Origin: Fluviicoccus sp.
GTDB lineage: Bacteria > Pseudomonadota > Gammaproteobacteria > Pseudomonadales > Moraxellaceae
DNA length: 60,327 bases
NCBI GenBank assembly: GCA_036279775.1
Contig: DASUIM010000508.1
Span: forward strand, 1 to 60,327
Direction: 5' to 3'
The notes beneath the pieces were generated by a model. That model was not told where the DNA came from and did not search any database. It saw only the letters and a list, made by a program, of their open reading frames with translations. Shown here one piece after another: positions 1 to 60,327 of this stretch. The number at the start of each line of letters is the position of its first letter. Position 1 is the first letter of the stretch. Both the position numbers and the translations under genes were made by a program.

Positions 1-141
1 CGGATTACGCTTTCCGTGTCGGTGCCGGCCAGCGCGGCCACGTCGTCCATCACCAGCTTACCATTCCGGTTCAGCGATACGAACAGAGCGTCTTGGGTAG
101 TCTTGATCTCCGGTTCGCGCGGAGCCTCGAGCACGCGGCCA
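1..141. repeat. Exact direct repeat of 60187-60327 (circular assembly overlap)
   Basis: cggattacgc...gcacgcggcca is identical at both ends, 141 nt, and lies inside a coding region. Confidence 0.97.
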
Positions 142-3100
142 TTGAGCACGGCGCCCTTGGCGATGGAGCCGTCCTCCTTGACGGTTTCCAGCGCGTAGGC
201 GAGCGCGCCCTCGGCGTCCATGCGCAGCAGCGGCTCATTCTTGTAGCGTTTGGTTTCGGTGACGGTGCCGTCCGGGGCGGTGCGCTCGATGGTGGTGTAA
301 TCCAGGATCGGGCCGTGCTCCTTCACGAAGGCATCGTAGACCTTGTTCAGCTCCTTCAGGCTCTTCTGCCAGTTGCCATCGTTGAGCTGGTCGTACTGCG
401 CCTGCTTCATGGCATCGCGCAGGCCCACGTAGCTGCGCAGCCACTTCTTCTGCTTCGGCGTCAGGGCGATCTGCTTGCCCTCGGTGTTGGTGCGGAACTC
501 CACCGGCACACCGCTGCCGTTCTCTACCTGCATCAGCTTGCCGTCGTCGGACAGGTAGAGGCCACCTTCCTTACGGCTCTTCGGGTTGAAGTCGCGCTCC
601 TGCACCATGGCGCGCTCGGCCTGCGAGCCGCGCTCAGGGCGGAAGACGTTCTCCGGCAGGCTCTGCACGGCCTTGGCGAACAGCTCGTCGATGTCGCCGT
701 CCGGCGGCAGCACGGTGTATTCGTTCGCCCGGTACATGCTGCCCTGCAGGGCGTGGCTGCCCAGCACCATCTCGGGATGGTCGGCGAAATACTCGTTGAT
801 GGCGGCCGGGCCTTGCGGGGTCGTAACCTCCTTGGTGCCGAGCCACTGCACGCCATTGTCGGCGATACCCGGGCCACGCTTCTGCAGGAAGATAACGTCG
901 GTCACTACCTCGGTGCCGGCGTTGTCCTTGAAAGCGGTCTGCGGCAGGCGGATCGCGCCCAGCAGGTTGGCGCGCTCGGCCAGGTACTTGCGGCTCTTGT
1001 CGCTGGCCTTGTCCATCGTGCCCTTGCTGGTCACGAACACCAGCACGCCGCCCGGCTTCACGCGGTCGATGGTCTTCATGAAGAAGTAATCATGCAGCAT
1101 CGGCCGGCGCGACTTGTATTCCGGGTCGGTCAGGATTTGCGTGGAGCTGAACGGCGGATTGCCGACAGCCGCGTCGAAGAAGTCCTTCGGCAGGTTGGTG
1201 CGGGTGTAGTCACCCACAATAATGTTGCTCTCCGGGTACAGCAGCTTGCCGATGGTCCCGGTGATGGTGTCGTACTCGATACCGGTATAGCGGCTGTTTG
1301 CTGCCATACCATCAGGCATCAAACCGTTGAAATGGCCGACGCCCATGCCCGGCTCGAGAATGGAGCCACCAGCCACGCCCAGGCGCTGCAGGCCGGTGTA
1401 GATGGAGCGGATCACGCCCTCGCTGGTGTAGTGGGCATACTGGGTGGTACGGCGGGCCTGCGCATATTCCTCTTCGGTCAGCGCGGCCTTCAGGCGTTCG
1501 CCCAGCTCGCGCCAAGAGGCGTCCTTGTACTGGCCGTACTGGTTCGGGAAGATGCCGTTGGCGATCTCGGAGGCGCCCCAGCCGGTGTATTTCACCAGCT
1601 GCGCGCGCTCTTCCGGGGTGGCCTGCCGGCCTTCTGCGGTGATCTTCTTGGCGAGTTCGACGATCTCGACGTTGCGCTGTGCGGTGGCCTTCCACGAACC
1701 TTCCCGCTTCAGCTCGCCCGGCTGGATGCGGTAGTTCCTTACGCCGCTGCTTGGCTCGTCACTTCCTCGACGGCCTGCTGCAGCGCCTGGTTCTCGGCTT
1801 CCTTGAACTGCAGGTTCAGCGTTTGCGTCCGCACCATCGGATCGGCCACGAACCCCGGCTTGCCCTGCGTCGTCGCCGCCTCGATTGCCTGCTGCCGGGC
1901 TTCCGCTATCGACTCCTCGGCTCGGCCGAGTATCGGGTTCAGCACCTCGTCCAGCCGGTTGCTGGCCTTCAGCTCGGCGTACAGCTCCGGCTGCCTGTCC
2001 TTCAGCGCCAGCACCAGCGCCTGCTTGAGTTCCTTGGGTGTCATTCTGGTTGTCCTCCTCCTTCATTTTAGCCTGTGCAGATTGCTCTGCAATATCTGCC
2101 ATCATGGCGTCATGCGCCTTTTTGGCAACCTGCTGCGAACTCATGCCATCAGTATCAAGCCCGGGATAGTTACGGGCGGCTTCATAGAAGGAGAGTAGAT
2201 AGGGGGTGATTGCCTCGCCGAAATCGGCGGTCATGGCCTTGGCGTAGTCAGAGAAGCGGCGAACACCAGATTCGATGTAGCCACCGGCAATGGTCATGCC
2301 GTCAATCAGCAGTTCCGGGTCTATACCAGCGTTCAGCTGGGTGCCGGACAGCTTCTGCTTCAGGCGCGCACGGGCGGCCTCCACCTTGTCGGCGGTGAAA
2401 ATCTTGTTGTTGGCGAACTGGCCATTCTTGCCGCCGGTCGGCGGGGTCGGCTCGGTCGGCTTGGCCTCTCCCTGCATCTTTGCGACCTGATCCATCTCGG
2501 ATTTTGTCAGCCCACCGATACGCTCTGCTACGGCAGTGATGTCGCCAGGACGTGCTTTCATGTCAGCGAAACGCTGGATAAGCCCAGCCCTGTCGATGTC
2601 GCCGTTCATGAAATCGACGACAGCGCGCTGGCCTTGCGTGATTACCTCTGGCTGGCCGTCAAACACATGAGGGTATTCGATGCGCTGCGGCTTTGCCTCT
2701 GCCTGCACCTCTTCCACGGTCGGCGGGGTCTGGTTGGCCGCAGCCCGCTCCTTCCGAGGAAGATCACGCGCCTGCTGCAGCATGGTGGCACGGTCGCTCG
2801 GCGATGCAGGCGCACGGCCGCGCACGGCGGCAGACAGCTTGGCATACATCGTGGCGTTCTGATCTGCGTCGGAAAGCGCCTGATACATGGCCTTGCGCCA
2901 TTCAGCCGGCGTCGATTCATCGGACTGCTGCGCGGTGGATTGCTCCTCCTCGCGCATCCGGTCCATGTGCCAGGACAGTTGCTTGGTGAGATCGTCCAGC
3001 GCCTCAATGTCGGCGCCGTCCTGCTGGCGCATGGCCTCGATGTCGGCCATGTCCTGCTCTGCCATGGCGAGCGTGTAGCCGGACTCGCCACGGGAGGCGC

Positions 3101-6100
3101 CGCGCTTCTTGCGCAGGCCCTGCGAGATGCGCTCGGTACGGGTCTGCACGTCGCCAGTGAATGCCGGCTTCTGTGCTGCAGGCTGCACCTGCTTGCCGTC
3201 CATGGCGGCGCGGATTTTCTTGGCGTAGATGGTGTTGCCGGTGTAGTCCCAGCCACCATTCACCACGCGCGACAGAATCTGCTCAGGCACGCCAGCAGCA
3301 GCGGCGAATGCCTCGCGCTGCACTTTGGTGGCCTGCATCCAGCGGTCTGCGTAGTCGTCCTGCTGCTCGGCTGCCGGTGCCAGATTTGGCACTTCCTCGG
3401 CAGCTTGAACTGTCGAGGATTCCTCGGCAGTTGCCTTCGGCTTGATCTCCCAGCGCGCCTTGCCGGTCTGCACGGCGTCATGGGTGGCGCCTGCCTTCTT
3501 CTTGGCGATGAAGGCTTCGGCCTTTTCCTTGCTGCCGAACCACTTGCCGGCGTGCTCGTTGGCTACTTCTTCGGCTTGGCTTTCTTGGCCTTGCTGCGTA
3601 GGGCCTGCGCTACCTTCTGCTGGCTTGCCGGCGGCAGGTTCTTGGCCTGCTGGATTGCTTTCTGCAGTCTGTTGCTGACGCTCATTAACGATTCCCTCGA
3701 GTGCTTGGAAGAATTGAGTTGCGGTGCCGCCATCAGTCATCACGGCGGCGCGTTCGATGAGTTCGGCGGCGACATCCTCGCCAAACTCGGCATTCATGGC
3801 GGCGGACAGCTCGGCGTAAGCCTTCGCCTCTGCGTCGTCCAGGTTGGCCGGCGCCTCATCGATGGCGGCCGTGAAGTCGGCGGTCACCAGCTTGTTGATC
3901 TGCGCCTCGATCTGGCGGCGCTGTTCCTTCAGCTCCGGCGTCATGCCGGTTTCCTTGGCCTGTGCGGCGACTTCCTTCAGCTGTGCGCGCAGCTCCGGCT
4001 CGGTCATGGCCTCGAGGTTGGCGGGCGCTGGCGCGGCCTGCGGTGCGGCGGCAGGCTGCTTGCCGTAAGTCCCAAGCCTGCGCTCGATGATACTGGCGTA
4101 GCGGCCAACGATCTCCGGGGACACACCAGCTACCTCGGCGAACTTCTCCGGCGTGGCGCGGAAATCTGCGGCGATCTGCGCTGCACGCTCGCTGTCATTG
4201 GCAGCGATGTTCTGCAGGTAGGTTTCAGCCGCCAGGATGCGATCCACTCGCGGGTCAACCGTAGCCGGGTGCTCGCGTCGTGCCATTTGACCGAGCGCGC
4301 CGGCAACATCTGTGGCGGTGCCTTGCTGCTGGCTCAGTGCAGGCTGGGTGTCGGCGGTTTGGTCTGCACCAGAAACACCAGCTCCAGCACCGAGTTCAGA
4401 TGCTCCGGCGTCACCTCGCACGACAGCAGGGCCTGCTTGATCTCCTGCGCCTGCTGCTGGCTGATTAGCCCCTGTTTGCGCAGCCGCTTGATCGCCTTGT
4501 TGGCCGACATTTCGAACTCCAAGATCACCATTGGCAGCTACTCCTGTGGTGGCGGTCTGATCCAGCTGGGGCGCCTTCGCGGCTACCTTTTCCAGCGCCT
4601 TGGCGAGCGGGCCGGTTTCCGGGGTGATCTGCACCGGGTCGTCGCTGGTGAAGGTGTAGACCTGCCCATCGTCACCCAGCACGCGGGTGACGGTGTTCCC
4701 CTGCTCGTCCTCGGTGTGGGACTGCACAAAGCCGGTGATCTCGCCTTCAGGGGCGGTCACGGTGACGCGCGCCGGCTGCTCGGCGGTGTTCTCCATCGCA
4801 CGGGTCAGCGGGCCGTCAGCCTGCGACGGTGCCGGCGGGGTAGTGGTCGCAACCGGTGCGGCTTCTGCCGGGGCAGCTTCTGCCGGGTTGGCCGCAGCGG
4901 CCGGGGCAGCTTCTGCTGCTGCCGGGGCGCCTGCCGGGGTAGTGGTGCTGGCCGGCGCGGCCGGAGTGGTCGGCGACGGCTGCGCGCTCGGCGTGGCGCC
5001 GGGCAGACCGCGCTTGGCGATGTCCATGGCGCTACCGATGGCCGGTTCAACAACAGACTGCCCGAAACCGTACACGCCTTCGCGCAGGGCATCGCCGGCA
5101 TCTACTTCGCCGCGTGCTACCTTCTGGCTCGCGGCCTCGCCCACGACTTCGCCGGTCGCATCCAGACCGACAGCAGCACCGCCAGCAGCGACACGCTTGC
5201 TGATGGTCGGGGCCACGCCGGTTTTCAGGGCCTGACGGGACGGCGCGGTAGCCACCTTGCCGCCGAGGCCCATGAACAGCTGATCCACCAGCGCGACGGT
5301 CAGGCCCTTCTTCAGACCGCGCTCGCGCGCTTCAGACTGGAAGGCTTTGTCGTCCAGCAGGGCCTTGATGTTGCCGGCGGTCGGCGCGGCCTTGTTGGCC
5401 TGCAGGCGCTCGAGGAGCATCTGCTCGACTTCTGCGCCCAGCTCGGTTGCGGTGGTGCCGGCTGCCATACCAGCACGGCCACCCCAGATCGCACCGCTCA
5501 CAGCACCCGGCGCGGCGCCGATACCACCGAACAGCGCACCAACACCAGCGCCAGCAGCAGCGCCAGTACCAGCACCAGCACCACCGCCGGCAATGGTCGG
5601 CAGCATGTTCGGTGCCTGCTCGACGATGCCGACAGCCAGGTCTTTCGGGTTGGTGATGGCGGTCCCGATAGCTTTCGCGCCGGCCTTCACGGTATCCCAT
5701 GCGCCTTGGGCGTTGGTCACGTCCTGGAAGGCGGCGTCGATCTCCTTCTCGCCGGTCGTCTTCGGGCGGTTGGCCTCGCGCTGGAACTTCGCGGCCAGCG
5801 CGTTCGCCAGCTCGCCACTGTCACCGCCGGCAACGGCAAAGCGGGCAGTGTTGAGCGACTGCACCATGTTGTCGTAGCCGGTGGAAACGGCATCGCCGGC
5901 ACGGTCGAAGAAGCCGCGATTGTCGATGGCCTTCTGCTGGTCGGCCGCACCAGCCTCCATGGGATCAGCGCCAGCCGGCTTGAAGTTGCGGTACTGCTCG
6001 GCGGTTTCGATCTCGGTGCGCTGGCGGTCGCGGCGGGCTACCTCTTCCGGGGAGTTCTCGAACGGGTACAGGGTTTCGCCGATGCGCGCGGCCTTGCCCA

Positions 6101-6641
6101 TCACCTCCTCGCCGTAGGCGGAAGTCTTCGCGCCCCACAGCTTGCGGTTAGGACCAGCGAAGTGCTCGCGCACGGCGTCGATCATCGAATAGCCCTTGTC
6201 CAGTCGCTCGCGCAGCTGGCGGGCGGCAGCCGGGATCGCCTGATTCGGGTCGAACGGGTTGATGCCCAGACCGCTGGCAGTGCTGTCCAGGTACTGCATC
6301 ATGCCCTTGGCGCGGCCCCACTCGGTCGGCAGGCCGATGGCTTTCGGGTTGAAGCCGCTCTCCTGGTGGCCGAGGGCCATCAGCACGTTGACCGGCACGT
6401 TGAACTCACGCGCGGCGGCCTCGAACAGTGGGCGGAATTCTGCGGGCGGGGTGTAGTCGCCGGACTTGCGGCCTTTGCTGGGGGCGCGGGTGTCTGCTTG
6501 TGCCGGCGCCTGCGCCGGAGGGGTGGCCGGTTGCGCCGCCGGCTCCTCGGTGGGTAGCGGCGGCAGCGCAAACCGTTCTTGCTGGATACGCTCAGTGACA
6601 GCTTCTAGCGGGGATTCGAGAAACGTGTTTTTGCTCGCCAC
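1..6641 (-). CDS. darB: 5' part of giant polyvalent DarB-like virion protein (SLT transglycosylase, Gly/Ala hydrophobic segment, linkers, N6-adenine methyltransferase); continues across the origin to 52926, total 4,633 aa
   Basis: Absent from the ORF track. Manual translation from GTG 6641 (MASKNTFLESP, RBS AAAAGGG) found no stop and joins 52926..60320 in frame (6641+7261=13,902 nt). SLT motifs LGHQESGFNP/GMMQY at ~6080-6440; MTase motifs LEPGMGVG (~1340-1360) and GNPPF (1149-1160). Confidence 0.93.
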   Translation of the reverse strand, partial: MASKNTFLESPLEAVTERIQQERFALPPLPTEEPAAQPATPPAQAPAQADTRAPSKGRKSGDYTPPAEFRPLFEAAAREFNVPVNVLMALGHQESGFNPKAIGLPTEWGRAKGMMQYLDSTASGLGINPFDPNQAIPAAARQLRERLDKGYSMIDAVREHFAGPNRKLWGAKTSAYGEEVMGKAARIGETLYPFENSPEEVARRDRQRTEIETAEQYRNFKPAGADPMEAGAADQQKAIDNRGFFDRAGDAVSTGYDNMVQSLNTARFAVAGGDSGELANALAAKFQREANRPKTTGEKEIDAAFQDVTNAQGAWDTVKAGAKAIGTAITNPKDLAVGIVEQAPNMLPTIAGGGAGAGTGAAAGAGVGALFGGIGAAPGAVSGAIWGGRAGMAAGTTATELGAEVEQMLLERLQANKAAPTAGNIKALLDDKAFQSEARERGLKKGLTVALVDQLFMGLGGKVATAPSRQALKTGVAPTISKRVAAGGAAVGLDATGEVVGEAASQKVARGEVDAGDALREGVYGFGQSVVEPAIGSAMDIAKRGLPGATPSAQPSPTTPAAPASTTTPAGAPAAAEAAPAAAANPAEAAPAEAAPVATTTPPAPSQADGPLTRAMENTAEQPARVTVTAPEGEITGFVQSHTEDEQGNTVTRVLGDDGQVYTFTSDDPVQITPETGPLAKALEKVAAKAPQLDQTATTGVAANGDLGVRNVGQQGDQAAAQTGANQPAAGAGDQAGPAVVRGDAGASELGAGAGVSGADQTADTQPALSQQQGTATDVAGALGQMARREHPATVDPRVDRILAAETYLQNIAANDSERAAQIAADFRATPEKFAEVAGVSPEIVGRYASIIERRLGTYGKQPAAAPQAAPAPANLEAMTEPELRAQLKEVAAQAKETGMTPELKEQRRQIEAQINKLVTADFTAAIDEAPANLDDAEAKAYAELSAAMNAEFGEDVAAELIERAAVMTDGGTATQFFQALEGIVNERQQQTAESNPAGQEPAAGKPAEGSAGPTQQGQESQAEEVANEHAGKWFGSKEKAEAFIAKKKAGATHDAVQTGKARWEIKPKATAEESSTVQAAEEVPNLAPAAEQQDDYADRWMQATKVQREAFAAAAGVPEQILSRVVNGGWDYTGNTIYAKKIRAAMDGKQVQPAAQKPAFTGDVQTRTERISQGLRKKRGASRGESGYTLAMAEQDMADIEAMRQQDGADIEALDDLTKQLSWHMDRMREEEQSTAQQSDESTPAEWRKAMYQALSDADQNATMYAKLSAAVRGRAPASPSDRATMLQQARDLPRKERAAANQTPPTVEEVQAEAKPQRIEYPHVFDGQPEVITQGQRAVVDFMNGDIDRAGLIQRFADMKARPGDITAVAERIGGLTKSEMDQVAKMQGEAKPTEPTPPTGGKNGQFANNKIFTADKVEAARARLKQKLSGTQLNAGIDPELLIDGMTIAGGYIESGVRRFSDYAKAMTADFGEAITPYLLSFYEAARNYPGLDTDGMSSQQVAKKAHDAMMADIAEQSAQAKMKEEDNQNDTQGTQAGAGAGAEGQAAGAVRRAEGQQPAGRGAEPDTRPSRGVDSGSPAAGNRGGDDAGQAGVRGRSDGADANAEPAVQGSREPGAAAGRRGSDEPSSGVRNYRIQPGELKREGSWKATAQRNVEIVELAKKITAEGRQATPEERAQLVKYTGWGASEIANGIFPNQYGQYKDASWRELGERLKAALTEEEYAQARRTTQYAHYTSEGVIRSIYTGLQRLGVAGGSILEPGMGVGHFNGLMPDGMAANSRYTGIEYDTITGTIGKLLYPESNIIVGDYTRTNLPKDFFDAAVGNPPFSSTQILTDPEYKSRRPMLHDYFFMKTIDRVKPGGVLVFVTSKGTMDKASDKSRKYLAERANLLGAIRLPQTAFKDNAGTEVVTDVIFLQKRGPGIADNGVQWLGTKEVTTPQGPAAINEYFADHPEMVLGSHALQGSMYRANEYTVLPPDGDIDELFAKAVQSLPENVFRPERGSQAERAMVQERDFNPKSRKEGGLYLSDDGKLMQVENGSGVPVEFRTNTEGKQIALTPKQKKWLRSYVGLRDAMKQAQYDQLNDGNWQKSLKELNKVYDAFVKEHGPILDYTTIERTAPDGTVTETKRYKNEPLLRMDAEGALAYALETVKEDGSIAKGAVLNGRVLEAPREPEIKTTQDALFVSLNRNGKLVMDDVAALAGTDTESVI
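1739..2044 (-). CDS. Nested +1-frame gene inside darB; TnpV-like helical protein (101 aa)
   Basis: SD AAGGAGGAGG 9 nt before ATG. 34 of the first 36 codons after ATG end in G/C. Motif LKxxxPxLYxxLxxSxxL...ADPM...N...AE resembles TnpV as I recall it. Confidence 0.78.
   Translation of the reverse strand: MTPKELKQALVLALKDRQPELYAELKASNRLDEVLNPILGRAEESIAEARQQAIEAATTQGKPGFVADPMVRTQTLNLQFKEAENQALQQAVEEVTSQAAA
3563..3685 (-). CDS. Nested +1-frame basic peptide inside darB (40 aa, MSVSNRLQKAIQQAKNLPPASQQKVAQALRSKAKKAKPKK)
   Basis: GAGGGA 7 nt before ATG 3685; TAG at 3563-3565; same alternative frame as the other nested ORFs. Confidence 0.55.
   Translation of the reverse strand: MSVSNRLQKAIQQAKNLPPASQQKVAQALRSKAKKAKPKK
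4334..4531 (-). CDS. Nested +1-frame gene inside darB (58-65 aa; alternative start ATG 4510)
   Basis: GGAG precedes both ATG 4531 and ATG 4510. Codons are G/C-ending and the product looks like an amphipathic helix, while the darB frame here is a low-complexity linker. Confidence 0.65.
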   Translation of the reverse strand: MVILEFEMSANKAIKRLRKQGLISQQQAQEIKQALLSCEVTPEHLNSVLELVFLVQTKPPTPSLH

Positions 6642-6668
6642 GGCGTGCCCTTTTTGGTCTGAAACGGA

Positions 6669-6707
6669 TGGTCAGATATTAGCACCACCGGTATCCGTTT
6701 CAAACCA
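6669..6707 (-). promoter_or_regulatory. Tandem 19-bp TGGT-N11-ACCA boxes over putative darB promoter
   Basis: TGGTCAGATATTAGCACCA 6669-6687 and CGGTATCCGTTTCAAACCA 6689-6707; minus strand reads TTGAAA-N16-TAATAT with TG extension. Confidence 0.6.
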
Positions 6708-6713
6708 ATAGGG

Positions 6714-8246
6714 TCAGCGATAGACGATAGTTCCTGTCGCTGGATCGTAGACCGGCGTGCCGCGTCGTGACGGGGCGGCCGGGGTAGAAGGCGCCTGCGT
6801 GCGGGGCGTCTGTGTCGCGGCTCCACCACCGAACACGATCTTCATGTCCTGGTCGATGATGCGGTTCTGCTCCTCGGCGGACTTGCGGCCAAACATCGGA
6901 TCGCTCTTCATCCGGTCGGAGAAGGCCAGGCGGCGGGCCTCCTCCGGCGAGGTGGCCTTCTTGTAGTCGCCCACACCCAAGATCGCCGGCAGCGCGCCGT
7001 TGATGAACTCGTCCGAGTAGCCAGCATTGCGCAGGGCCTGCACCTTGGCGCCAACCTCGCGCTGCACCTTGCTCGAGGCGTTCGCGTCCTGCAGCTGGGA
7101 CTCGATGGTCTTCAGCTCGATGGCGTTGTTCTGCTGGCGGACATCGCGCGCCTCCTGCGCCTGAACATCCATCTGCTTGAGGGTGCGCTGCTGGCCGAAG
7201 TTGCGATCCTGCTTGTAGATGTCCTGCTGGAAGTTGCGATTGTCCTTCGCGGCCTCTGCTGCAGCCTTCAGTGCGGCCTCGTCTGCAGCGGTCTGGCGCT
7301 TGAAGGTCTGCTCGAACATGGCTTGCGGCGAAAGCGCAGCCAGCCCCATCTCGGTCAGGTTCCGTTTGTCGATGAACTGGGTGTACTCCTCGCCGGTCTT
7401 GTCGTTCTTCAGCCGCACATTGAAGCCGGTCACGTTGCCCTGGTTGTCGGTCACCTTCTCCTTGGACAGCGGTGTGATCCCGTCATCGTATCGCTTGTAC
7501 AGCTCAAAAATGTGATCCGCTGCCTTGTCGAAGTTGCCGATCTGGGCGGCACGGTAGGCGCCGGCCCACTCGCGCATGGCGGCCTTGTTCTCGCGGTCCT
7601 CGGCCCACTTGCCCCAGGCGTCCGCCTTCTCGATGTCGCCTTGCTCCATGTACACCTGCTGCATGCGAGGTACGAGCGTCTTGCTCATGAAGCTCATCAC
7701 GTCCGGCGTGGCCTTCTCGGCGGCTGCGCGGGCCTCCTCGCGGGTGGCGTAACCCTTGCCCCCCACCATGAACGGCAAGCCAGCCTGCGGCCCTGCTACG
7801 GGCGCTGCAGTGCCGGGTGCCGGCGCGTCGGCAGTCATGCGGGCCGGCTCGGTCTTCGCCCGTTGGATCGTGATAGATCGATCCTCGTCCTGCAGCTTCG
7901 GCTGCACCGACGTGAACTTGGTCGGCGCGGCTGCCGGAGTCACGGTTGCACCGGGCGTGCGCTCCGGGTTCTCCACCATCGACTCGGTAGGTTGGCCGGA
8001 CGGCGCCGTAACCTGCTCGGCCGGCTTGCCGGTGATCCCACCGGTTGCGGCCGGGGTTTGCGCCTGGCTGTTGTCCTGAATCTGCGCATCCACTGCCGCG
8101 CTACGTGCTGCCTGAGCCTCGGCAATGCCCTGCTCGCGCACGTCGTTGATCTTCTTCTGCTTCATGGCGTCGCCGATAACCTTGCCCATCGACACACCAT
8201 TGGCGAAGCCTGCAGCCAGGCCGCCAGCGAATCCGCCCCAGTTCAT
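6714..8246 (-). CDS. Internal virion/ejection protein
   Basis: 510 aa; N-terminal GGFAGGLAAGFANG amphipathic motif; Gln/Ala-rich; lies just before the giant virion protein. Confidence 0.7.
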   Translation of the reverse strand: MNWGGFAGGLAAGFANGVSMGKVIGDAMKQKKINDVREQGIAEAQAARSAAVDAQIQDNSQAQTPAATGGITGKPAEQVTAPSGQPTESMVENPERTPGATVTPAAAPTKFTSVQPKLQDEDRSITIQRAKTEPARMTADAPAPGTAAPVAGPQAGLPFMVGGKGYATREEARAAAEKATPDVMSFMSKTLVPRMQQVYMEQGDIEKADAWGKWAEDRENKAAMREWAGAYRAAQIGNFDKAADHIFELYKRYDDGITPLSKEKVTDNQGNVTGFNVRLKNDKTGEEYTQFIDKRNLTEMGLAALSPQAMFEQTFKRQTAADEAALKAAAEAAKDNRNFQQDIYKQDRNFGQQRTLKQMDVQAQEARDVRQQNNAIELKTIESQLQDANASSKVQREVGAKVQALRNAGYSDEFINGALPAILGVGDYKKATSPEEARRLAFSDRMKSDPMFGRKSAEEQNRIIDQDMKIVFGGGAATQTPRTQAPSTPAAPSRRGTPVYDPATGTIVYR

Positions 8247-8965: not shown

Positions 8966-8967
8966 CG

Positions 8968-52811: not shown

Positions 52812-52955
52812 ATGAGAGACATTGAACTCGCCAAGCACTTCCCCGAAAACATCTCCGACGCCAAGCGCAACAGGATGGCAAGGCTAGGCGCCCTGTACAT
52901 CCTGTTTGCCATGTTTGGCGTGCCGCTATTCGTCGTCCTCCTCGCCCGCCTGTAG
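52812..52955 (+). CDS. 47-aa peptide with C-terminal TM helix
   Basis: RBS GAGGT; MRDIELAKHFPENISDAKRNRMARLGALYILFAMFGVPLFVVLLARL; overlaps the darB 3' end by 30 nt. Confidence 0.6.
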   Translation: MRDIELAKHFPENISDAKRNRMARLGALYILFAMFGVPLFVVLLARL

Positions 52956-55900
52956 CCCGAACACCCCGCGCAGCTCCTCGGCCGCCTGCCGGCCTTGCTT
53001 ACGCTCGCGGCCCCATGTGCCTTTCACGCCATCGCGCTCGCGCATCATCTTGTTGCGCAGCGCCCGTGTGCCGATCTTGATGACTTCCTCCGGTGCTGCA
53101 GTGTCGTTGTGCTCGTTGATGTCGGCGTAGATGTCGTCGATCTCCTGCTCGATCTCCGGCGCCTCCTCCGGGCTGGCAGTTTCCAGCCGCACCATGGCTT
53201 TCGCCAGCTTGTTGGTGTAGCTGCGCTTCAGGCCATCCACGGCGGTTTCCTGCCGGCGTTGGGCATACTCGTAGTCGCGCACGTCGGTGACGATAGACGG
53301 CTGGAAGCCAATCGCCTTCATCGCAAGGTCACCGTTGCCAAGCTCGTCCGGAGCCAGGATCAGGTTACCCTGCTTGTCGCGCACGCCCTCGAGCGCCCAG
53401 CTCCCCGACACCAGCCAGTGCTTGATGAAGTTCGGGGACAGCTCGCCCAGCGCGCCCAGCTCGTCGCCGGCAGACATCTTCTCGAAGGCCCGCTTCGGGC
53501 GGCCGATCAGCATGTCGAACGGGATGCCGGCGGCAGCAAGCGGCGAATCCGGCACGATGGAGCCCATGCCCACCCGGGTCAGGTCCACACCGAGCGGGTA
53601 GCTCGCGCCCTTGGTCACCATCTGGGACAGCGCATTGCTGCCGGAGGTTCGGGCGATCCACGCGCGCAGCTCGGTCTTCAGGTCCATGTCTTTGCCGGTG
53701 ATCGTCTTGTATATGCTCTCCAGCAGCTCGCGCAGGTCGTCGGCGCCAGGCAGTCCCCACAGTCCGGATAGGGAATACAGCGCCAGCAGGGAGGCCGCAG
53801 CAGCGTACTTGCCTTCTTTGCCGTGCAGGGCGGCCATGCGATACCACGCTTCCATGGTCTGCAGCATGAAGCCCTTGAACTGCATGATCGTCGAGCCAAC
53901 ACCGCGCATCACGCTCGGACGGTTGGCCTTGCCCATGCGGTACTGCGACTCGTCCACCGCCCATTCCGCGAAGCTCTTCGGGTTCCAGTTGCGCAGCACT
54001 TCGGCACGGGCCAGCGCATCGCCGGCCAGCACCCGATTGGCGTTCTCCTGGACGGCGCGCTTCTGAGCCACGCGCGCTGCCGCGATGAAGGTAACAAGCC
54101 GGTTCATACGCTCGGCGAAGGTGAAGCCCAGCGCGATGATCTGCGTTGCCTTGTTGAAGGCTTTCACCCCCTTACGGGCGCCGACGTTGCGCTGCCGCGC
54201 GGTCATCATCAGGTCGAAGGACTCGAGCGGCACGAAGGAACCTTCCGCCCAAGCCTCTTTCAGGATGTCGCGCACGTCGGCCGGTGCCTTGTTCGGGTCG
54301 AACATCTCGAGGGTGGGCGAGATCATGCGGGCGGCGTCCTTGTAGGCGCGGCCAATCTCCTTGGTCAGCAGCGGCATCGGTGCAACCTGGCCCAGCGTCG
54401 GCAGGGTCATCAGTGGAACCTGCGTCAGGTTGGCGAAAGCCGAGGCCAGCACACCCGCGATGTAGCTGAAGAAGCCGATTTGCTTGACCATCGCCAGCTC
54501 TTCCTGCGGGTCGTTCACGTAGTTGCGGTACTTGCTGGCGTACTCGAACAGCTTCGGCTTCTCGTTGATCCCGCTGACGGCGTTTTCCCACCGCTTCATG
54601 TGCTGGCGACGGGACAGGTAGCCGGACATCCCGATCACGTAGTCGGCGATGGACCGCTCGAAGTCGCCGGTATAGCCAGGCACGTTGTCGGAGTGGAAGA
54701 AGTGCCGGCGGAAGCCCTTCGCCTTGATGGCGTCGGCCAGCTTGTCGCGGACAGCATCCCATGTGCCGTTGTCGATGTTCGCCACCTCGGCCAGCGCGTC
54801 CACGTCGGACAGCTTCACGGGCTGGTCTGTCTTCTTCTCGCGGGTCTTGAAGGCCACGATCCGGCGGTTCGGGTGGCCCTCCACCCATTCCGCGCGGGCC
54901 TTGTCGATGGCCTCCTTCACGGCCTTGATGTCGTCCACCTTGCCGGCGCGGCGCTCGTCCAGGATGTCACCCAGCCCGGTTTCCACCTTGGTCGAATAGA
55001 TGGTCTTCTCGGTCAGCCGCTCAACGTCCTGTTTCTGGGACTTCTTGATGCGCCAGCCCTCGGCGTTGCGCTCTGCGCCCATCTCCACCAGCTCGGGGGC
55101 GAAGGAATCCGGCAGGCCCTTGGCGATGTAGTGATCCTTGTCGTCCTCCACGAAGGACACGTCGGCAACCTTCTCCTTCACGGTCACCACGTAGTCACCG
55201 TAGCGGGCGAACGGCACGTAGCCGGCGCGCTTGGCCTGCTCGATCTCGGACACGAAGGCGGCAATGTTCTTGATGCGCTCGGCCTTCTCCGGCGGGGTCT
55301 TATCGTCGATGGTAGCGATGATCTTCTTGGCGGCATTCCCCTCCCCGGCGAACTCGCCGAAGCCCATCTCCTCGAGGGTCACGTCGCGCATCTTGTCCAG
55401 CGCGCGGTCGAACATCCGGCGCAGGTCCTGGTACGCCTTGATCTCCTGCTCGTTCAGCTTCACCACCTCGCCCACTTCGGTCAGCAGGGCATGGATCGGC
55501 TCCTTGGCGAGGAACGGCTTGCCGGCCACCATCACAACAGTGGTCTTCTCGCCAGTGTTGCCGATGCCGTCAGCCAGTACACGCGGCGTGTAAACGCTCG
55601 AGGTCAGGCGGCCCAGCTCCAGCGCCTTGTTGACCTTCTCCTTACCCTGCTGGTCGAGGTGGTCATATGCCTTCACGTCGGCGCCGAAGTCGGCGATGAA
55701 CTTGTCGCGGGTTTCCATCTGGCTGATGGCCGTCCGGTAAACCGGGGTGAACTCCTTGTGCACGGCGGCCACGGTACGCGGATGCACCAGCAGGCGGGCG
55801 CCAAGCGACATGTCGCCCAGCACGCGGCCGATGTAGTCGTCCTTCACCTTCGGCGCGTCGAGCGCGGCGGCGGCGGCGTCCAGCTCCTTGCTGTCCTCGG

Positions 55901-58900
55901 CCACGCTGAACTTGCCGGTAACACCGGACAGTTGGCCGCGCTCGGCCATCACGGCGGCGTTCATGATGACCAGCTTCGCCATGCCGGCCAGTTGGGCCGG
56001 GGTCACGTCACCCAGCTGCTTGCCGTAGCGTGCCAGCACGTAAGCCTTGATGTGGCCGATGAGGTCTTCCACCCACTTCCGGATCACCGCCGGCAGGCTG
56101 TCGCGGTTCTGCTCCCACTCCTCCACGGCGTAGGCGCCGAACTCTTCCACGGTCATGCCGGTGCTGACGGCGCCCTGCTGGCGGGCTGCGGCCACGCGGT
56201 CACGGGCGCGGTCGAAGAACTCGCGCGCCTTGCCGCTGGAAAGCTCGGCCTGCCGGTACAGGGAGCCGAGGCGGCCCATCAGGTTGCCCCATTCCTTCGA
56301 ACCAACCAGGGCCTCACCGCCCATGTGGAACATTTCGTGCAGCAGCACCGGGCGGGCGTTGTCGCGGGTCAGCCGGTTGGCAACCAGGTGAATCTGCCCG
56401 TTGGCGAGGGTAACGGCCTGCACGCCCTTCTTGCCACGGGCGGCCTTCGGCATGGTTTCGGCGTTCTGGTGCAGCACGATCTGGCCGTTGTCGATCATGC
56501 GGGCCACCACCGGGCCGATAACTCCCGTGGTGATCTCGCTGCGCAGGTCGTCAACATTCAGCTTGCCGGACCGCTGGCGCACCACCTCGGAACGGTTGGC
56601 CGGCTCCGGCTGGGTGGATTGCTTGGCATCGCCGTACTTCTCGTAAGCCGACACCAGCCATGCCTTCGCCTGGCCGTTCCAGTCGAGGCGGATAGTGGCC
56701 TCGTCGGACTCGTTGCCGAGGAACACGCGGCCGATCTGGTTGGACTTCTCGTAAACGTCGGTTTCCTGCAGGATCGCGGCGATGCGGGGCAGGAAGTCCT
56801 CGCCACGGCGGGCGGCGATGTGGGACAGGCCCATCTTGCCATCGCCCCAGATCAGGCTGATCTCGCCCAGCTTCGGGTGGTCGATGATGGCCTCGCCGGT
56901 ACGCTGCTGCTGCAGGTACTGGATGGCGCCGGCCGGGTCGTTGCGGAAGTCTTCGGTCACCGGGCCGAACTCGCCCACCGCCTGCCCTTCGGCATTGACG
57001 GAGTAGCGCGGCTCGGCATCAGCGGCAGCGTCTGCCTGCTCGGTGGTTCCCTCTACCGCCACCGTGGCAGCGGCGGCATCGGCGTTGTTCTCCTTGCTCT
57101 CGGCAGCCAGCTCGGCCTCGAGGCTGTTCAGCTCGGCCACCTTCTCCAGCAGCAATGCCTCTTCAGGGAACGGCGCCCCCAGTCGCTTGCTGGCCTGCTC
57201 TACCTTCGCCTTGGCGCTGTCGATGTAGCCCTGTGCGTCAGCACGCTGCTTGTCCAAGCCGTTGACCTGGTTGGCCGCACGGGTGGCGATGCCGGAAACG
57301 GCGGTATCCGGGTCGAGCGGGAACGTCAGCAGCGGGTCAGGATCGTCCGGCAGGTCCACATGCAGGGAGGCAGCATAGGTGCCGCCCTTCATCTCGAGGC
57401 CATAGAACTTGATCGGGAAGCCGCCGATCTCGCCAACCTCGCGCTCGTCCTGCAGGCCGGTGCCGGCGATGTCCTGGAACTCCTTGAACAGGGCTTGGCT
57501 GAATTCCTCGCGGCTGTCGTAGGTGGTCTTGCCAACCTTGCCCTCGAACTCACCGGCCTTGATCGGCTGGCGCTTGGCAATGGCCTTGTCCAGCTCCTGC
57601 ACGCGGGCGGTGTTGCGCTTGATCTGCTCTTCTGCCCAGTGCTTCTCGCGCATCAGGCGGTTCTGGTCGTCGTAGTGGGCATGGCGCAGGCGCTCGAGGC
57701 GATCCACGTCAGCCTTGAGGCCGGCCAGCTTCATGTAACGCTCGTCGCCGGAAGCCAGCGCGGCGGCCATCTCGAAGGCCGATGCCTCGGACACGTCCTC
57801 CATGGAGCGAACGCTGTCGTCGCCGTTCATGGCCTGCTCGATGAAGCGGGCCTTGCGGGCGTTCATGCCCCACATGGTCGAGTCGTAGCTGCCCTTGGTG
57901 GCGTATGCCTTCAGCACAACCTCGCGGTTCTGGTTGCCCTGACGCACGGCGCGGCCCTCGCGCTGCTCCACGGAGGCCGGGAACCATGGCGCGTCCAGGT
58001 GGAACAGGTGGGAGAGGCGCTTCTGCACGTTGGTGCCGGTTTCCATCTCCTTGCCGCCGATCAGGATGCGCTTCTTGCCCTCGCGCATGTCGGAGAACAT
58101 CCGCTCCTTCTTGGCGTGCTGCTTGTAGTCGCGCATGAAAGCGATGTGCTCGCGCGGGATGCCGGCATCGGTCAAGCGCTTCTCGATCCAGCCTCGCATG
58201 TCGAAGCCACGGGAGGCGGCCGACTGCTCGCCGAGGCCGATGTCGGTAAACACCATCAGGGTGGAACCCTTCAGCGGCTCCACCTTGCCGTCCTTGGCAG
58301 CGTATTCCCAAGTCGCAGTCTCCTTGTAGGCCGCGATCAGGTCGTCGATCATCTGGTTGAGCTTGCTGTCCGGGTCGCTCGGCAGGGTCGGGTCTACGAA
58401 ACGCATGTCGATTGCCGAGAAGCGGCCGTCGCCAATCACGTTCAGGATGATGTCCTCGCCCTTCTTCGGCGGTCCCTTGCGGCGCTTGATCGCCTCAATG
58501 CGCTTCTGCAGGCCCTGCTGGAACTCCTTGTAGCCGGCCGGCGACGGGGTGACTTCCACCTTGCGGCCACCGCCAACCACGTCCGGGCGCTTCACCAGCT
58601 CGCCAAGGTTGGAGCTGGTCAGGATGTCCATAAAGGAACGGACACGGCGCATCAGCTCCGGCACGTTCTGGAACTTGGCGAAGCGGGCCACCATCTCGTA
58701 GCCGCCGGCAGCGTTCTGTTCAAAGCCGGTCACGATGTCGCCGTACTGGTTCGCCCAGGCGTCGAAGCTCTCGAGGCCGTCTTCCTTCATCTGCTCCGGC
58801 TGGAAGAAGCGTTGCGCGGTGTACAGCTCGCCCATGGTGTTGGTCACCGGGGTGCCAGAGGCAGCAACCAGCGCGCGGCCGGGCTTCTTGCCGCGCAGGT

Positions 58901-60327
58901 ACTCCACCTTCATGAACAGGTCGAGCGCGCGCTGCGAGCCGTTCGGGTCTACGCCCTTCACGTTGCCCTGGTTGGTGGCGAAGTCCAGCTTCCGGAACTC
59001 GTGGAACTCGTCCACATACAGCTTATCGACGCCCAGCTCTTCGAAGGTCAGTACCTGATCCTTCTTGTCGCGGTTCTGGCGGCCTTCCATGCGCTGCTCG
59101 AGCTGCTCGATGCGGCGCTCGATCTGCTTCACGGTCACGCGGTCGCTGCTGTCGGCATCCTCGAGCGCAGCCTTCCAGTCGTCGATTTGGCGCTGCATGA
59201 AGTCGGTGTAGAACTCATCGCTCATGCCGATGCGGCCAAAAGCCGAGTGCGTGATGATGATGGCGTCCGGGTTGTTCAGCGCGGCCTGTGCCACAAACCG
59301 CTTGCGGTTGTGGGTGTGGAAGTTCTGCTCGTCGGCAACCATGATGTTGGCCGCCGGGTACAGCTCCAGGAACTCGCGGGAGAACTGGGCAAGCATGTGG
59401 TTCGGCACAACGTACATCGGCTTGTTCACCAGGCCGAGGCGGCGCTCCTCCATGCCGGCGCCGATCATCTCCATGGTCTTGCCGGCGCCTACCGCGTGGG
59501 CGAGGTAGCTGTCGCCCTGCTGGATCACGCGCCATATCGCGCGCTTCTGGTGCGGCCGGAGCTGGATCAGGGCCGACACGCCCGGCAGGGTCAGGTGCGA
59601 GCCATCGAACTTGCGGGGCGCGATGTTGTTGAAGTTCTCGTTGTAGTAGGACACCAGACGCTCGGCGCGCTTGGGGTCGGTCCATAGCCAGGTGCTGAAA
59701 CGCTCGCGCATCTTCTTGGCGATGTCGTTCGCCTTCTCGGTTGCCTCGAGGTCAACGTGGGTCTTGTTCTCCTGGTCGCGGAAGGTGATTTTCAGCTGAC
59801 GATTGTTGAGCACGCCCTCGAGGACCTGGCCGGCGCTCATCTTGTCGAAGCCCCACTCGGTGAGGCTGCGGCTCTTCTGGTCCACATCCCACTTGTTCAG
59901 TAGCGGGCTGTAGGTCACGTCCATGCGCTCGCCCAGCACTTCGCTGGCGAACTTCTCGATGTCGGAGGCCGGAACCCAGTTGGCGCCAAGACGCACGGTG
60001 ATGTCGGTCGGGCCGAGCGGGCGCGGCTGCACGGACAGTAGGGCCTCGACGTTACGCTTGTAGCGCTGGTCCAGCTCGGCGGCGGCGCGGGCTTCCTTCA
60101 GCTTGCGCACCACGTTGCCGGACAGGTACTCATCGGCCAGCTGCCAGCCGGCGCCCGGAGCGTCGTAAATGGCAGTGCCAAGATCGCGGATTACGCTTTC
60201 CGTGTCGGTGCCGGCCAGCGCGGCCACGTCGTCCATCACCAGCTTACCATTCCGGTTCAGCGATACGAACAGAGCGTCTTGGGTAGTCTTGATCTCCGGT
60301 TCGCGCGGAGCCTCGAGCACGCGGCCA
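52926..60327 (-). CDS. darB: 3' part of giant DarB-like protein (SWI2/SNF2 helicase, PBECR-like nuclease, HExxH peptidase, PLxRFG-like domain)
   Basis: AVGAGKT (~59475-59495), DEFH (59001-59012), SGTP, QREGR; ISLIWG..GLSHI...WLVSAY (~56630-56960); HEMFH 56325-56339; YVPFARYG (~55200). Confidence 0.93.
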   Translation of the reverse strand, partial: GRVLEAPREPEIKTTQDALFVSLNRNGKLVMDDVAALAGTDTESVIRDLGTAIYDAPGAGWQLADEYLSGNVVRKLKEARAAAELDQRYKRNVEALLSVQPRPLGPTDITVRLGANWVPASDIEKFASEVLGERMDVTYSPLLNKWDVDQKSRSLTEWGFDKMSAGQVLEGVLNNRQLKITFRDQENKTHVDLEATEKANDIAKKMRERFSTWLWTDPKRAERLVSYYNENFNNIAPRKFDGSHLTLPGVSALIQLRPHQKRAIWRVIQQGDSYLAHAVGAGKTMEMIGAGMEERRLGLVNKPMYVVPNHMLAQFSREFLELYPAANIMVADEQNFHTHNRKRFVAQAALNNPDAIIITHSAFGRIGMSDEFYTDFMQRQIDDWKAALEDADSSDRVTVKQIERRIEQLEQRMEGRQNRDKKDQVLTFEELGVDKLYVDEFHEFRKLDFATNQGNVKGVDPNGSQRALDLFMKVEYLRGKKPGRALVAASGTPVTNTMGELYTAQRFFQPEQMKEDGLESFDAWANQYGDIVTGFEQNAAGGYEMVARFAKFQNVPELMRRVRSFMDILTSSNLGELVKRPDVVGGGRKVEVTPSPAGYKEFQQGLQKRIEAIKRRKGPPKKGEDIILNVIGDGRFSAIDMRFVDPTLPSDPDSKLNQMIDDLIAAYKETATWEYAAKDGKVEPLKGSTLMVFTDIGLGEQSAASRGFDMRGWIEKRLTDAGIPREHIAFMRDYKQHAKKERMFSDMREGKKRILIGGKEMETGTNVQKRLSHLFHLDAPWFPASVEQREGRAVRQGNQNREVVLKAYATKGSYDSTMWGMNARKARFIEQAMNGDDSVRSMEDVSEASAFEMAAALASGDERYMKLAGLKADVDRLERLRHAHYDDQNRLMREKHWAEEQIKRNTARVQELDKAIAKRQPIKAGEFEGKVGKTTYDSREEFSQALFKEFQDIAGTGLQDEREVGEIGGFPIKFYGLEMKGGTYAASLHVDLPDDPDPLLTFPLDPDTAVSGIATRAANQVNGLDKQRADAQGYIDSAKAKVEQASKRLGAPFPEEALLLEKVAELNSLEAELAAESKENNADAAAATVAVEGTTEQADAAADAEPRYSVNAEGQAVGEFGPVTEDFRNDPAGAIQYLQQQRTGEAIIDHPKLGEISLIWGDGKMGLSHIAARRGEDFLPRIAAILQETDVYEKSNQIGRVFLGNESDEATIRLDWNGQAKAWLVSAYEKYGDAKQSTQPEPANRSEVVRQRSGKLNVDDLRSEITTGVIGPVVARMIDNGQIVLHQNAETMPKAARGKKGVQAVTLANGQIHLVANRLTRDNARPVLLHEMFHMGGEALVGSKEWGNLMGRLGSLYRQAELSSGKAREFFDRARDRVAAARQQGAVSTGMTVEEFGAYAVEEWEQNRDSLPAVIRKWVEDLIGHIKAYVLARYGKQLGDVTPAQLAGMAKLVIMNAAVMAERGQLSGVTGKFSVAEDSKELDAAAAALDAPKVKDDYIGRVLGDMSLGARLLVHPRTVAAVHKEFTPVYRTAISQMETRDKFIADFGADVKAYDHLDQQGKEKVNKALELGRLTSSVYTPRVLADGIGNTGEKTTVVMVAGKPFLAKEPIHALLTEVGEVVKLNEQEIKAYQDLRRMFDRALDKMRDVTLEEMGFGEFAGEGNAAKKIIATIDDKTPPEKAERIKNIAAFVSEIEQAKRAGYVPFARYGDYVVTVKEKVADVSFVEDDKDHYIAKGLPDSFAPELVEMGAERNAEGWRIKKSQKQDVERLTEKTIYSTKVETGLGDILDERRAGKVDDIKAVKEAIDKARAEWVEGHPNRRIVAFKTREKKTDQPVKLSDVDALAEVANIDNGTWDAVRDKLADAIKAKGFRRHFFHSDNVPGYTGDFERSIADYVIGMSGYLSRRQHMKRWENAVSGINEKPKLFEYASKYRNYVNDPQEELAMVKQIGFFSYIAGVLASAFANLTQVPLMTLPTLGQVAPMPLLTKEIGRAYKDAARMISPTLEMFDPNKAPADVRDILKEAWAEGSFVPLESFDLMMTARQRNVGARKGVKAFNKATQIIALGFTFAERMNRLVTFIAAARVAQKRAVQENANRVLAGDALARAEVLRNWNPKSFAEWAVDESQYRMGKANRPSVMRGVGSTIMQFKGFMLQTMEAWYRMAALHGKEGKYAAAASLLALYSLSGLWGLPGADDLRELLESIYKTITGKDMDLKTELRAWIARTSGSNALSQMVTKGASYPLGVDLTRVGMGSIVPDSPLAAAGIPFDMLIGRPKRAFEKMSAGDELGALGELSPNFIKHWLVSGSWALEGVRDKQGNLILAPDELGNGDLAMKAIGFQPSIVTDVRDYEYAQRRQETAVDGLKRSYTNKLAKAMVRLETASPEEAPEIEQEIDDIYADINEHNDTAAPEEVIKIGTRALRNKMMRERDGVKGTWGRERKQGRQAAEELRGVFGLQAGEEDDE

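What the first reader, a model, noticed from the sequence alone, without database searches (positions are those of the whole stretch)
1739..4531. Recurrent dual coding: three nested genes all in the same +1 frame form the disordered linkers of the giant protein
Seen: ORFs 4334-4531, 3563-3685 and 1739-2044 share one alternative frame. Each starts inside a darB AAT-G junction (AAT GGT/GTC, AAT GAG, AAT GAC) after a purine-rich SD, and each coincides with a low-complexity darB linker. Inference: the polyvalent gene may have grown by reading through former small intervening genes while keeping them translatable, giving an operon within a gene. This could be a general and overlooked design of giant phage and conjugative polyvalent proteins.
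Basis: partly seen in the sequence, partly recalled or inferred. Interest (0 to 1): 0.8.

Follow-up and report, generated by a model that had tools for sequence, protein, structure and literature searches.

The report
Three hidden genes inside giant gene
Three small open reading frames, each behind its own ribosome-binding motif, lie one base out of step inside a phage's 4,633-codon DNA methylase-helicase gene; relatives keep both readings intact, so all three are likely real genes that annotation misses, and the largest would likely act as a separately expressed partner or brake of the giant enzyme.

Summary
Confirmed. The window is a circular Bcep22-like phage; the host is a 4,633-codon darB-like gene. 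Of 43 alternative-frame ORFs, only A (4334-4531), B (3563-3685) and C (1739-2044) have a Shine-Dalgarno motif and clearly better phage codon usage than the host frame; 0 of 900 shuffles gave three. C is a distant TnpV-like helical protein; a +1 ORF sits at this site in 30 of 30 related viral loci, and bona fide TnpV is nested the same way in Bacillota element genes (14 of 80 loci). A is a conserved family; B shows 8 of 13 variants synonymous in its own frame. C has a conserved internal sigma70-like promoter. Two claims shrink: the shared +1 frame and the AAT-G junction follow from the genetic code, and only 3 of 11 linkers are dual-coding. Growth by read-through is unproven; HNH genes nested in Gamede/GP4 show frame-preserving gain as another route. 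Functions are untested. This scan found the same layout before on other DNA; my paper searches found no description of it.

The parts
3..6641 (-). 5' part of the giant darB-like (SLT + N6-methylase + SNF2 helicase) gene; codons 1-2213 of 4,633
   Evidence: ORF list; Pfam SLT, N6_Mtase; PHROG 10089 DarB-like; continues across the 141-nt terminal repeat
52926..60186 (-). 3' part of the same giant gene (helicase, PBECR1-like region); no codon-adapted nested ORF
6676..6703 (-). sigma70-like promoter match (TTGAAA-16-TAATAT, TG extension) upstream of the giant gene
   Evidence: consensus scan only
6171..6428 (-). soluble lytic transglycosylase domain of the giant (aa 72-157)
   Evidence: Pfam PF01464 E 3e-11
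4334..4531 (-). nested ORF A, 65 aa, +1 frame; predicted three-helix protein of a family ending ...FL.Q..PP..SLH
   Evidence: codon score; leave-out HMM of 6 homologues hits it at E 1e-15, best of 1052 window ORFs; 50% identical homologue P0136; AF2 pLDDT 86
4541..4545 (-). SD motif AGGAG of ORF A
   Evidence: sequence; SD kept in most homologues
3563..3685 (-). nested ORF B, 40 aa, basic, +1 frame; no distant homologue found
   Evidence: codon score; 8 of 13 variant sites in close relatives synonymous in this frame, p 0.002
3694..3698 (-). SD motif GAGGG of ORF B
   Evidence: sequence; no variant listed in the four runs laid
2065..2092 (-). likely internal sigma70-type promoter of ORF C (TTGCAG-16-TAAAAT)
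   Evidence: sequence; a 5/6 or better -10 box 12-45 nt upstream in 12 of 43 family loci versus 1.6 expected
2054..2061 (-). SD motif GGAGGAGG of ORF C
   Evidence: sequence
1739..2044 (-). nested ORF C, 101 aa, +1 frame, TnpV-like four-helix protein, ending at the start of the methylase core
873..1217 (-). N6-adenine methylase domain of the giant (aa 1809-1923; conserved core starts near 1733)
   Evidence: Pfam PF02384 E 7e-6, PF07669 E 3e-6; 70-83% identity to close relatives

Best explanation
Three +1-frame ORFs with Shine-Dalgarno motifs lie inside spacer regions of a 4,633-codon darB-like phage gene and are likely real, separately translated genes, of which the TnpV-like ORF C, likely driven by its own internal promoter, would act as a partner or brake of the virion-delivered methylase-helicase. 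Shown: the nesting, the codon signal, conservation of C and A in relatives, the substitution pattern favouring the nested frames, and avoidance of host-frame stops. Inferred: the giant is made whole, packaged and injected; over the nested genes it carries only a disordered spacer whose sequence is dictated by the small gene; A and B are made from the late mRNA by internal initiation (no promoter seen), C also from a host sigma70 promoter, so it can be present before or without late expression (after entry, or in a lysogen) to keep the DNA-modifying motor from acting at the wrong time. The +1 frame is used because there a small gene can remove every host stop by silent changes. Embedding ties the small gene to the giant through recombination and hides it from annotation.
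For: Codon switch and shuffles. C: tblastn hits in 40 phage records, all under the darB-like CDS; 125 clusters at 50% identity; codon-adapted +1 ORF just before the methylase in 16 of 16 loci and a +1 ORF of 65 aa or more there in 30 of 30 viral loci, one doubtful (9 loci shared); pN/pS lower in the nested than the host frame in 13 of 13 pairs; AF2 pLDDT 89. TnpV link: weak Pfam PF14198 hits for 5 of 11 C-family proteins (best E 4e-4), profile-profile probability 83%, E 9e-6 over 87 columns; true TnpV (E 4e-39, 1e-24) nested +1 in methylase/SNF2 ORFs; all 12 of 80 GTDB TnpV loci that have a DarB-like hit nearby are nested. Host frame actively kept open: 0 T at 334 stop-risk sites in 14 nested TnpV (zero by definition; about 78 expected from 23% T at other sites) versus 33% in 66 free copies; 0 of 197 versus 33 expected in 10 lower-GC phage loci. 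No conserved in-frame restart after C (SD-linked start in 4 of 32), so the methylase half needs the read-through. JC1 gp69 is in virions, 51 peptides (PMC9144972, passages). TnpV-carrying mobilizable elements insert specifically into ICE snf2 genes (PMC9815147, passages).
Against: No expression data for any nested ORF. 66 of 80 TnpV loci stand alone with no DarB-like gene in the DNA held (flanks often short), beside relaxases, coupling proteins and varied cargo, so TnpV is not an obligate cis partner. C does not reach the Pfam TnpV cut-off (14 bits versus 27). 13 of the 30 viral +1 ORFs do not hit the C profile, so their homology is inferred from position only. The promoter is seen in only 12 of 43 loci, which are related, and some starts were estimated, one wrongly. 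P1, PHB04, Lalka27a and a Streptococcus snf2 gene lack a nested ORF. For A, 2 of 9 pairs do not favour the nested frame. B rests on 13 sites from four related assemblies.
Confidence: 0.5

Rival explanations
1. The nested genes are real but functionally unrelated to the giant; C/TnpV acts elsewhere, for example as the Xis-like excision factor postulated for Tn4451, and the giant's spacers are only a safe place to sit.
For: Published postulate for TnpV (PMC3158075, passages); 66 of 80 TnpV stand alone, one fetched copy directly after a recombinase gene; these phages are temperate with recombinases (PMC9144972); HNH genes also colonise the giant in +1.
Against: C sits at one fixed place, abutting the methylase core, across Proteobacterial phages; in Bacillota every DarB-like gene found near a TnpV contains it (12 of 12); the C model is all-helical, unlike the winged-helix lambda Xis (fold recalled, not tested).
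Confidence: 0.3
2. The +1 ORFs are reached by programmed +1 frameshifting, giving shorter giant isoforms that end in A, B or C, rather than by separate initiation.
For: In the deposited PBC5 genome the TnpV-like sequence is the in-frame C-terminus of the N-terminal half (orf33) and the methylase half is a separate ORF.
Against: SD + start codon conserved at the 5' end of C and A in most homologues, and a -10 box before C; alignment of close relatives breaks exactly one base upstream of C's ATG; PBC5 is 1 case among the loci examined and may be a sequence error.
Confidence: 0.08
3. The giant is not translated through: A, B, C are ordinary genes between separate genes, and the long ORF is a GC-rich shadow frame.
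For: That frame is open by chance in 11 of 60 windows of 101 codons in ordinary genes of this phage; host-frame pN/pS is about 1 or more over C.
Against: The upstream gene has no stop in any of 16 of 16 loci; stop-risk sites are avoided in lower-GC relatives (0 of 197 vs 33 expected); no conserved restart after C.
Confidence: 0.05
4. A and C are real but B is a by-product of a Gln/Glu/Ala-rich spacer.
For: +1 openness of B is certain given the host residues (P 1.0); no distant homologue; local shuffles produce one such ORF in 4 of 300 runs.
Against: Host GC3 0.40 vs 0.80 in other linkers (p 2e-7); 8 of 13 variants silent in B versus 3 of 13 in the host frame, ATG, SD and stop unchanged in the assemblies that cover them; region 3432-4028 is kept while neighbouring spacers are deleted or replaced.
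Confidence: 0.15

Closest known systems
Hidden out-of-frame HNH endonuclease insertions in phage DNA methylase genes (ShiLan domain, Pacc40 gp60; PMC11855218, part 1 of 6 and passages read)
   Same: A complete gene out of frame inside a phage methylase(-helicase) gene; the host frame stays open and reads as a disordered loop; missed by annotation. HNH genes nested in Gamede, GP4 and locus L129 are directly of this kind.
   Different: There the guest is a selfish, patchily distributed nuclease in the third frame with no detectable RBS; here A, B, C are non-nuclease proteins in +1 with SD motifs, C is deeply conserved at one site, and several guests share one host gene.
Embedded spanin genes Rz1 within Rz (described for JC1 in PMC9144972, passages)
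   Same: Same-strand gene wholly inside another, both kept by selection, in this same phage group.
   Different: Rz/Rz1 are two small subunits of one known complex; here the host is a 4,633-aa multidomain protein with three guests, and the host frame over them is only a spacer.
TnpV of Tn4451/Tn4453-type mobilizable elements (Pfam PF14198)
   Same: About 100-aa helical protein; profile-profile match to the C family (probability 83%); true TnpV is nested +1 in ICE methylase/SNF2 genes.
   Different: C is below the Pfam cut-off; the classic TnpV is a free gene beside a recombinase; its function is only postulated.
DarB-like polyvalent proteins of Bcep22-like phages and phage P1 DarB (PMC5512222 term search; PMC9144972 passages)
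   Same: SLT + N6-methylase + SNF2 helicase giant, in the virion gene block; 73-76% identity of the methylase core to Bcep22/Ralstonia phages.
   Different: GenBank records of Bcep22, DC1, JC1, Y7, LASTA, PEp14, POI1126, VvAW1 list no gene inside it; P1 darB has no codon-adapted nested ORF, and P1 ulx lies downstream and did not match the C profile.

Membership tests
DarB-like polyvalent protein of Bcep22-like phages (host gene) | N-terminal SLT, N6-methylase and SNF2/helicase-C domains in one ORF of about 4,500 aa | tested here: met
   Pfam and PHROG 10089; 4,633 aa
DarB-like polyvalent protein of Bcep22-like phages (host gene) | Packaged in the virion and protective against restriction | not testable with these tools
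   Virion association reported for JC1 gp69 (PMC9144972); antirestriction is by analogy to P1
Same-strand nested overlapping genes | Guest wholly inside host, with own start signals and coding-type codon bias | tested here: met
Same-strand nested overlapping genes | Both frames maintained by selection in relatives | tested here: met
   nested frame; host frame kept open: (residues of the host frame show little constraint)
Same-strand nested overlapping genes | Both products expressed | not testable with these tools
   no RNA holder on record, contigs only
TnpV (PF14198), for ORF C | Score above the Pfam gathering cut-off of 27 bits | tested here: not met
   14 bits for C; best homologue 20.7 bits
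TnpV (PF14198), for ORF C | Remote homology over the domain | tested here: inconclusive
   hhalign probability 83%, E 9e-6, 87 columns, shallow profiles; C profile finds two true TnpV at E 0.0015 and 0.029 among locus ORFs: TnpV-like, not filed as member
ShiLan-type hidden HNH insertion, for A/B/C | Guest encodes an HNH nuclease | tested here: not met
   no HNH hit for A, B, C; met only for the L008 guest (PHROG 3377 E 2e-56)
P1 Ulx, for ORF C | Sequence similarity and position relative to darB | tested here: not met
   ulx lies downstream of darB; C profile gave no hit in the P1 locus at E 1
DUF1896 / PG0816 (PDB 2APL), for ORF C | Structural match standing above unrelated helical hits | tested here: inconclusive
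   rank 23, Z 6.0, rmsd 2.5 over 64 residues, tied with many helical bundles; no sequence hit in PDB

The most novel reading that the evidence does not exclude
The giant injected methylase-helicase genes of Bcep22-like phages and many conjugative elements are multi-gene carriers: their spacers are +1-frame landing pads holding an ancient, independently promoted TnpV-like regulator of the enzyme, a second conserved family (A), lineage-specific peptides (B) and newly arriving HNH genes; free TnpV on mobilizable elements would be a captured copy of that regulator, used to control the helper element's enzyme.
Probability: 0.3. Interest if true: 0.85.

Novelty: new variant of a known kind. Interest (0 to 1): 0.68.

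Why it matters
Long, conserved same-strand dual coding is rare in prokaryotic genomes, and here it recurs several times in one gene and across phages of many Proteobacteria and Bacillota conjugative elements. Annotation either drops the small genes or cuts the giant short, so proteomics of these much-studied phages has been searched against incomplete databases. It supplies candidates for the missing DarB accessory factors (the JC1 paper notes that no DdrA/DdrB/Hdf/Ulx homologues are known in these phages) and gives the orphan family TnpV a testable role. It also offers a simple route, read-through or insertion in the cheap +1 frame, by which polyvalent proteins gain disordered spacers.

Tried and rejected
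Complex prediction of C with the first 400 residues of the methylase core: no verdict, score 0.00; the helicase half was not tested. Fold searches: no clear match for C in PDB (best Z 7.0, generic helices) or BFVD (no E under 0.001), nor for A (best Z 3.8). ESM Atlas gave no answer. C = P1 Ulx: rejected. Single-sequence search with A found nothing, nor did tblastn with the L115 homologue; the profile search did. No free-standing A or B found; the protein hits carry no context. Tree of 14 nested, 26 free TnpV and 11 phage sequences (51 of 95 rows after removing near-copies): basal forks open, direction of nesting not resolved. No RNA holder listed. Close C relatives not found in viral contigs; host-family search found 2 of 300 genomes, both with the host frame open over the whole 3.2-kb locus. 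Re-initiation of the methylase half after C: not supported. No terminator-like site on the coding strand in 1500-7000. The founding Bcep22 paper (PMC3187461) is not held, so a remark there on embedded genes cannot be excluded; no supplements were read.
Full report
Setting. The window is a whole contig (G000:C508) with a 141-nt terminal repeat, i.e. a circular 60.2-kb phage. The ORFs 3-6641 and 52926-60326 are one gene of 4,633 codons with SLT, N6-methylase and SNF2/helicase domains, PHROG 10089 'DarB-like antirestriction'. Its methylase core is 73-76% identical to Bcep22-like Burkholderia and Ralstonia phages, with the same upstream gene order.

Observation. ORFs A (4334-4531, 65 aa), B (3563-3685, 40 aa) and C (1739-2044, 101 aa) are +1 to the giant, with host codons AAT GGT, AAT GAG, AAT GAC at the starts. 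Host GC3 drops there and nowhere else as sharply. Of 43 alternative-frame ORFs of 25 aa or more, these three score +69, +26 and +104 bits over the host frame and have SD motifs; one 28-aa Gly/Ala stretch scores +11 without SD; the other 39 are negative. Shuffles gave at least one such ORF in 0 of 300, 0 of 300 and 4 of 300 runs, and three in none. Eleven linker-like segments lie in the first 2,200 aa; three hold these ORFs, the other eight have host GC3 0.80.

What is trivial. A +1 frame under a spacer poor in Leu/Ile/Val/Met is open almost by default (P 0.54-1.0). Conversely, a host stop needs a nested codon ending in T before AA, AG or GA, which a silent change removes; with the nested proteins fixed and codons drawn from phage usage, the host frame is open with P 0.26, 0.43, 0.11 in this arrangement but 0.004, 0.38, 0.000 in the other. 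So the shared frame is expected. AAT-G is A before ATG, seen in 22 of 43 family loci.

ORF C. Ten homologues at 59-97%, 125 clusters in the representative library, and 40 phage records, all under the darB-like CDS. None of eight annotated genomes fetched lists a gene there. A codon-adapted +1 ORF precedes the methylase in 16 of 16 loci including Pseudoalteromonas, Klebsiella, Erwinia and Ochrobactrum phages. Among 30 viral loci with a methylase hit (9 shared with the 16; 32 of 38 loci had a hit, two were duplicates), all have a +1 ORF of 65 aa or more there, one doubtful; 17 hit the C profile, most being in it, and 13 do not. Of 10 more distant loci, five have the nested ORF, PBC5 has it fused to the N-terminal half, and four (P1, PHB04, Lalka27a, a Streptococcus snf2 gene) lack it. 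pN/pS is lower in the nested than the host frame in 13 of 13 pairs (0.16-0.94 versus 0.87-2.9). AF2 gives four helices, pLDDT 89, with no telling fold match. Upstream lie GGAGGAGG and TTGCAG-16-TAAAAT; a -10 box of 5/6 or better occurs in 12 of 43 loci against 1.6 expected, often TACAAT 20-23 nt before the ATG in Bcep22, JC1 and close metagenomic relatives (related loci, some starts estimated).

TnpV link. C and 4 of 10 homologues hit PF14198 weakly; profile-profile probability 83%. True TnpV is nested +1 in methylase/SNF2 ORFs of two gut contigs, an Enterococcus plasmid and a Monoglobus record where annotation keeps TnpV and starts the SNF2 gene 1.9 kb later although the frame is open from upstream. 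In the best 80 of 141 GTDB loci (query was a nested copy, so biased): 14 nested in +1, 0 in +2, 66 free; all 12 loci with a DarB-like hit are nested. Stop-risk sites carry T in 0 of 334 nested cases (about 78 expected) and 513 of 1,571 free cases, so the host frame is actively kept open. Neighbours of free copies (42 of 77 proteins scanned) are varied, with relaxase, coupling-protein and NikA genes among them. Papers: TnpV is only postulated to be Xis-like (PMC3158075, passages); TnpV-carrying mobilizable elements integrate specifically into ICE snf2 genes (PMC9815147, passages).

ORF A. Related +1 ORFs ending in ...LH lie mid-gene in Ralstonia phages, JC1, PEp14, VvAW1 and three viral contigs; shorter ORFs at the like place in Bcep22, DC1 and three contigs are more doubtful homologues. 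A profile without the window sequence finds A at E 1e-15, best of 1,052 window ORFs; P0136 is 50% identical over the full length. Nested pN/pS is lower in 7 of 9 pairs. AF2: three helices, pLDDT 86; no fold match. It was not found in LASTA, POI1126, Y7 and others. No promoter signal.

ORF B. No distant homologue. Assemblies from four other studies keep the region at about 94-96% identity while adjacent spacers are deleted or replaced. Of 13 variant sites, 8 are silent in B and 3 in the host frame (22% expected; p 0.002 and 0.57); no change is listed in ATG, SD or stop. The assemblies are related, so this is modest evidence.

Origin. Read-through of a former intervening gene fits C (guest has genome-like codons and probable free relatives; host frame is the unconstrained, disordered one) but is not shown: the tree leaves nested and free TnpV unordered. 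A second route exists: a 184-aa HNH gene is nested +1 in Gamede and GP4 only, while its relatives elsewhere are ordinary genes, and another HNH-like ORF sits at a different site in L129. This matches the published ShiLan/Pacc40 hidden HNH insertions (PMC11855218, part 1 of 6 and passages).

Mechanism. Shown: nesting, signals, conservation, selection pattern. Inferred: the giant is made whole (no conserved restart after C; JC1 gp69 in virions, PMC9144972 passages) and the guests are initiated internally; C, with a host-type promoter and a fixed place against the methylase, most likely partners or restrains the enzyme (about 0.5; the 'brake' wording came from an earlier scan note). Confidence that the ORFs are real genes: C 0.97, A 0.9, B 0.8.

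Literature. Term search of the polyvalent-protein paper found no TnpV or overlap (PMC5512222); the Parlo note mentions only embedded spanins (PMC6606913). Nine library searches (listings only unless named above) showed no paper describing genes nested in darB-like genes; the Bcep22 founding paper was unavailable. Earlier notes of this scan report the same layout in other genomes, none in this one; they are unchecked AI notes and were used only as leads.

Verdict. A real, widespread, apparently unpublished multi-gene nesting; a new variant of known nested-gene arrangements; functions open. Interest 0.68.

Noticed in passing
window 1-141 and 60187-60327: 141-nt terminal direct repeat: the contig is a circular phage genome and the two long ORFs at its ends are one 4,633-codon gene.
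   Followed up: yes
L008:6394-6948 (Ralstonia phage Gamede; also GP4) and L129:6408-7037: HNH endonuclease genes nested in the +1 frame of the giant gene at two different sites, host frame open; unannotated in Gamede/GP4.
   Followed up: partly
window 2045-2215, contigs of runs X2 and X4: Close relatives match up to one base before C's ATG and then carry a replacement with a net gain of 561 nt (187 codons, frame kept), the size of the Gamede HNH gene; its sequence could not be read.
   Followed up: no
L020:2389-8946 (Sinorhizobium phage PBC5): The giant is split in the deposited sequence; the TnpV-like protein is the in-frame C-terminus of orf33. Sequence error or true variant not decided.
   Followed up: partly
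L029:8160-15836 (Monoglobus record) and L027 (Enterococcus plasmid): Annotation handles the overlap in opposite ways: TnpV called and SNF2 gene shortened, or SNF2 called and TnpV dropped.
   Followed up: yes
L020:15196-15399, L015:15103-15312, L126:13698-13826, L132:5052-5312, L115:3712-3831 and 3985-4161, L009:5578-5736, L024:6754-6864: Further short +1 ORFs with positive codon score inside relatives' giant genes, some with SD; possible extra guests.
   Followed up: no
L114-L116, L118, L119, L130 and L120, L124, L126, L131, L135, L024: Two other sequence types of about 90-135 aa occupy C's site (one with an ANRW motif, one with a QQRMW motif); they do not hit the C profile.
   Followed up: partly
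window 2101-2128 (-): A second weak sigma70-like match (TTGCCA-16-CATGAT) upstream of C.
   Followed up: no
window 5498-5584 (-): Gly/Ala repeat with low host GC3 that mimics a nested ORF (+11 bits, no SD); taken as a false positive.
   Followed up: yes
L091:10730-12913: A free TnpV lies next to an Eco57I/TaqI-type methylase gene, not DarB-like.
   Followed up: no
window 8243-9061 (-): PAPS-reductase-like gene among virion genes, as in Bcep22-like phages; the listed start overlaps the upstream gene and the true start is probably the later Met near 8971.
   Followed up: no
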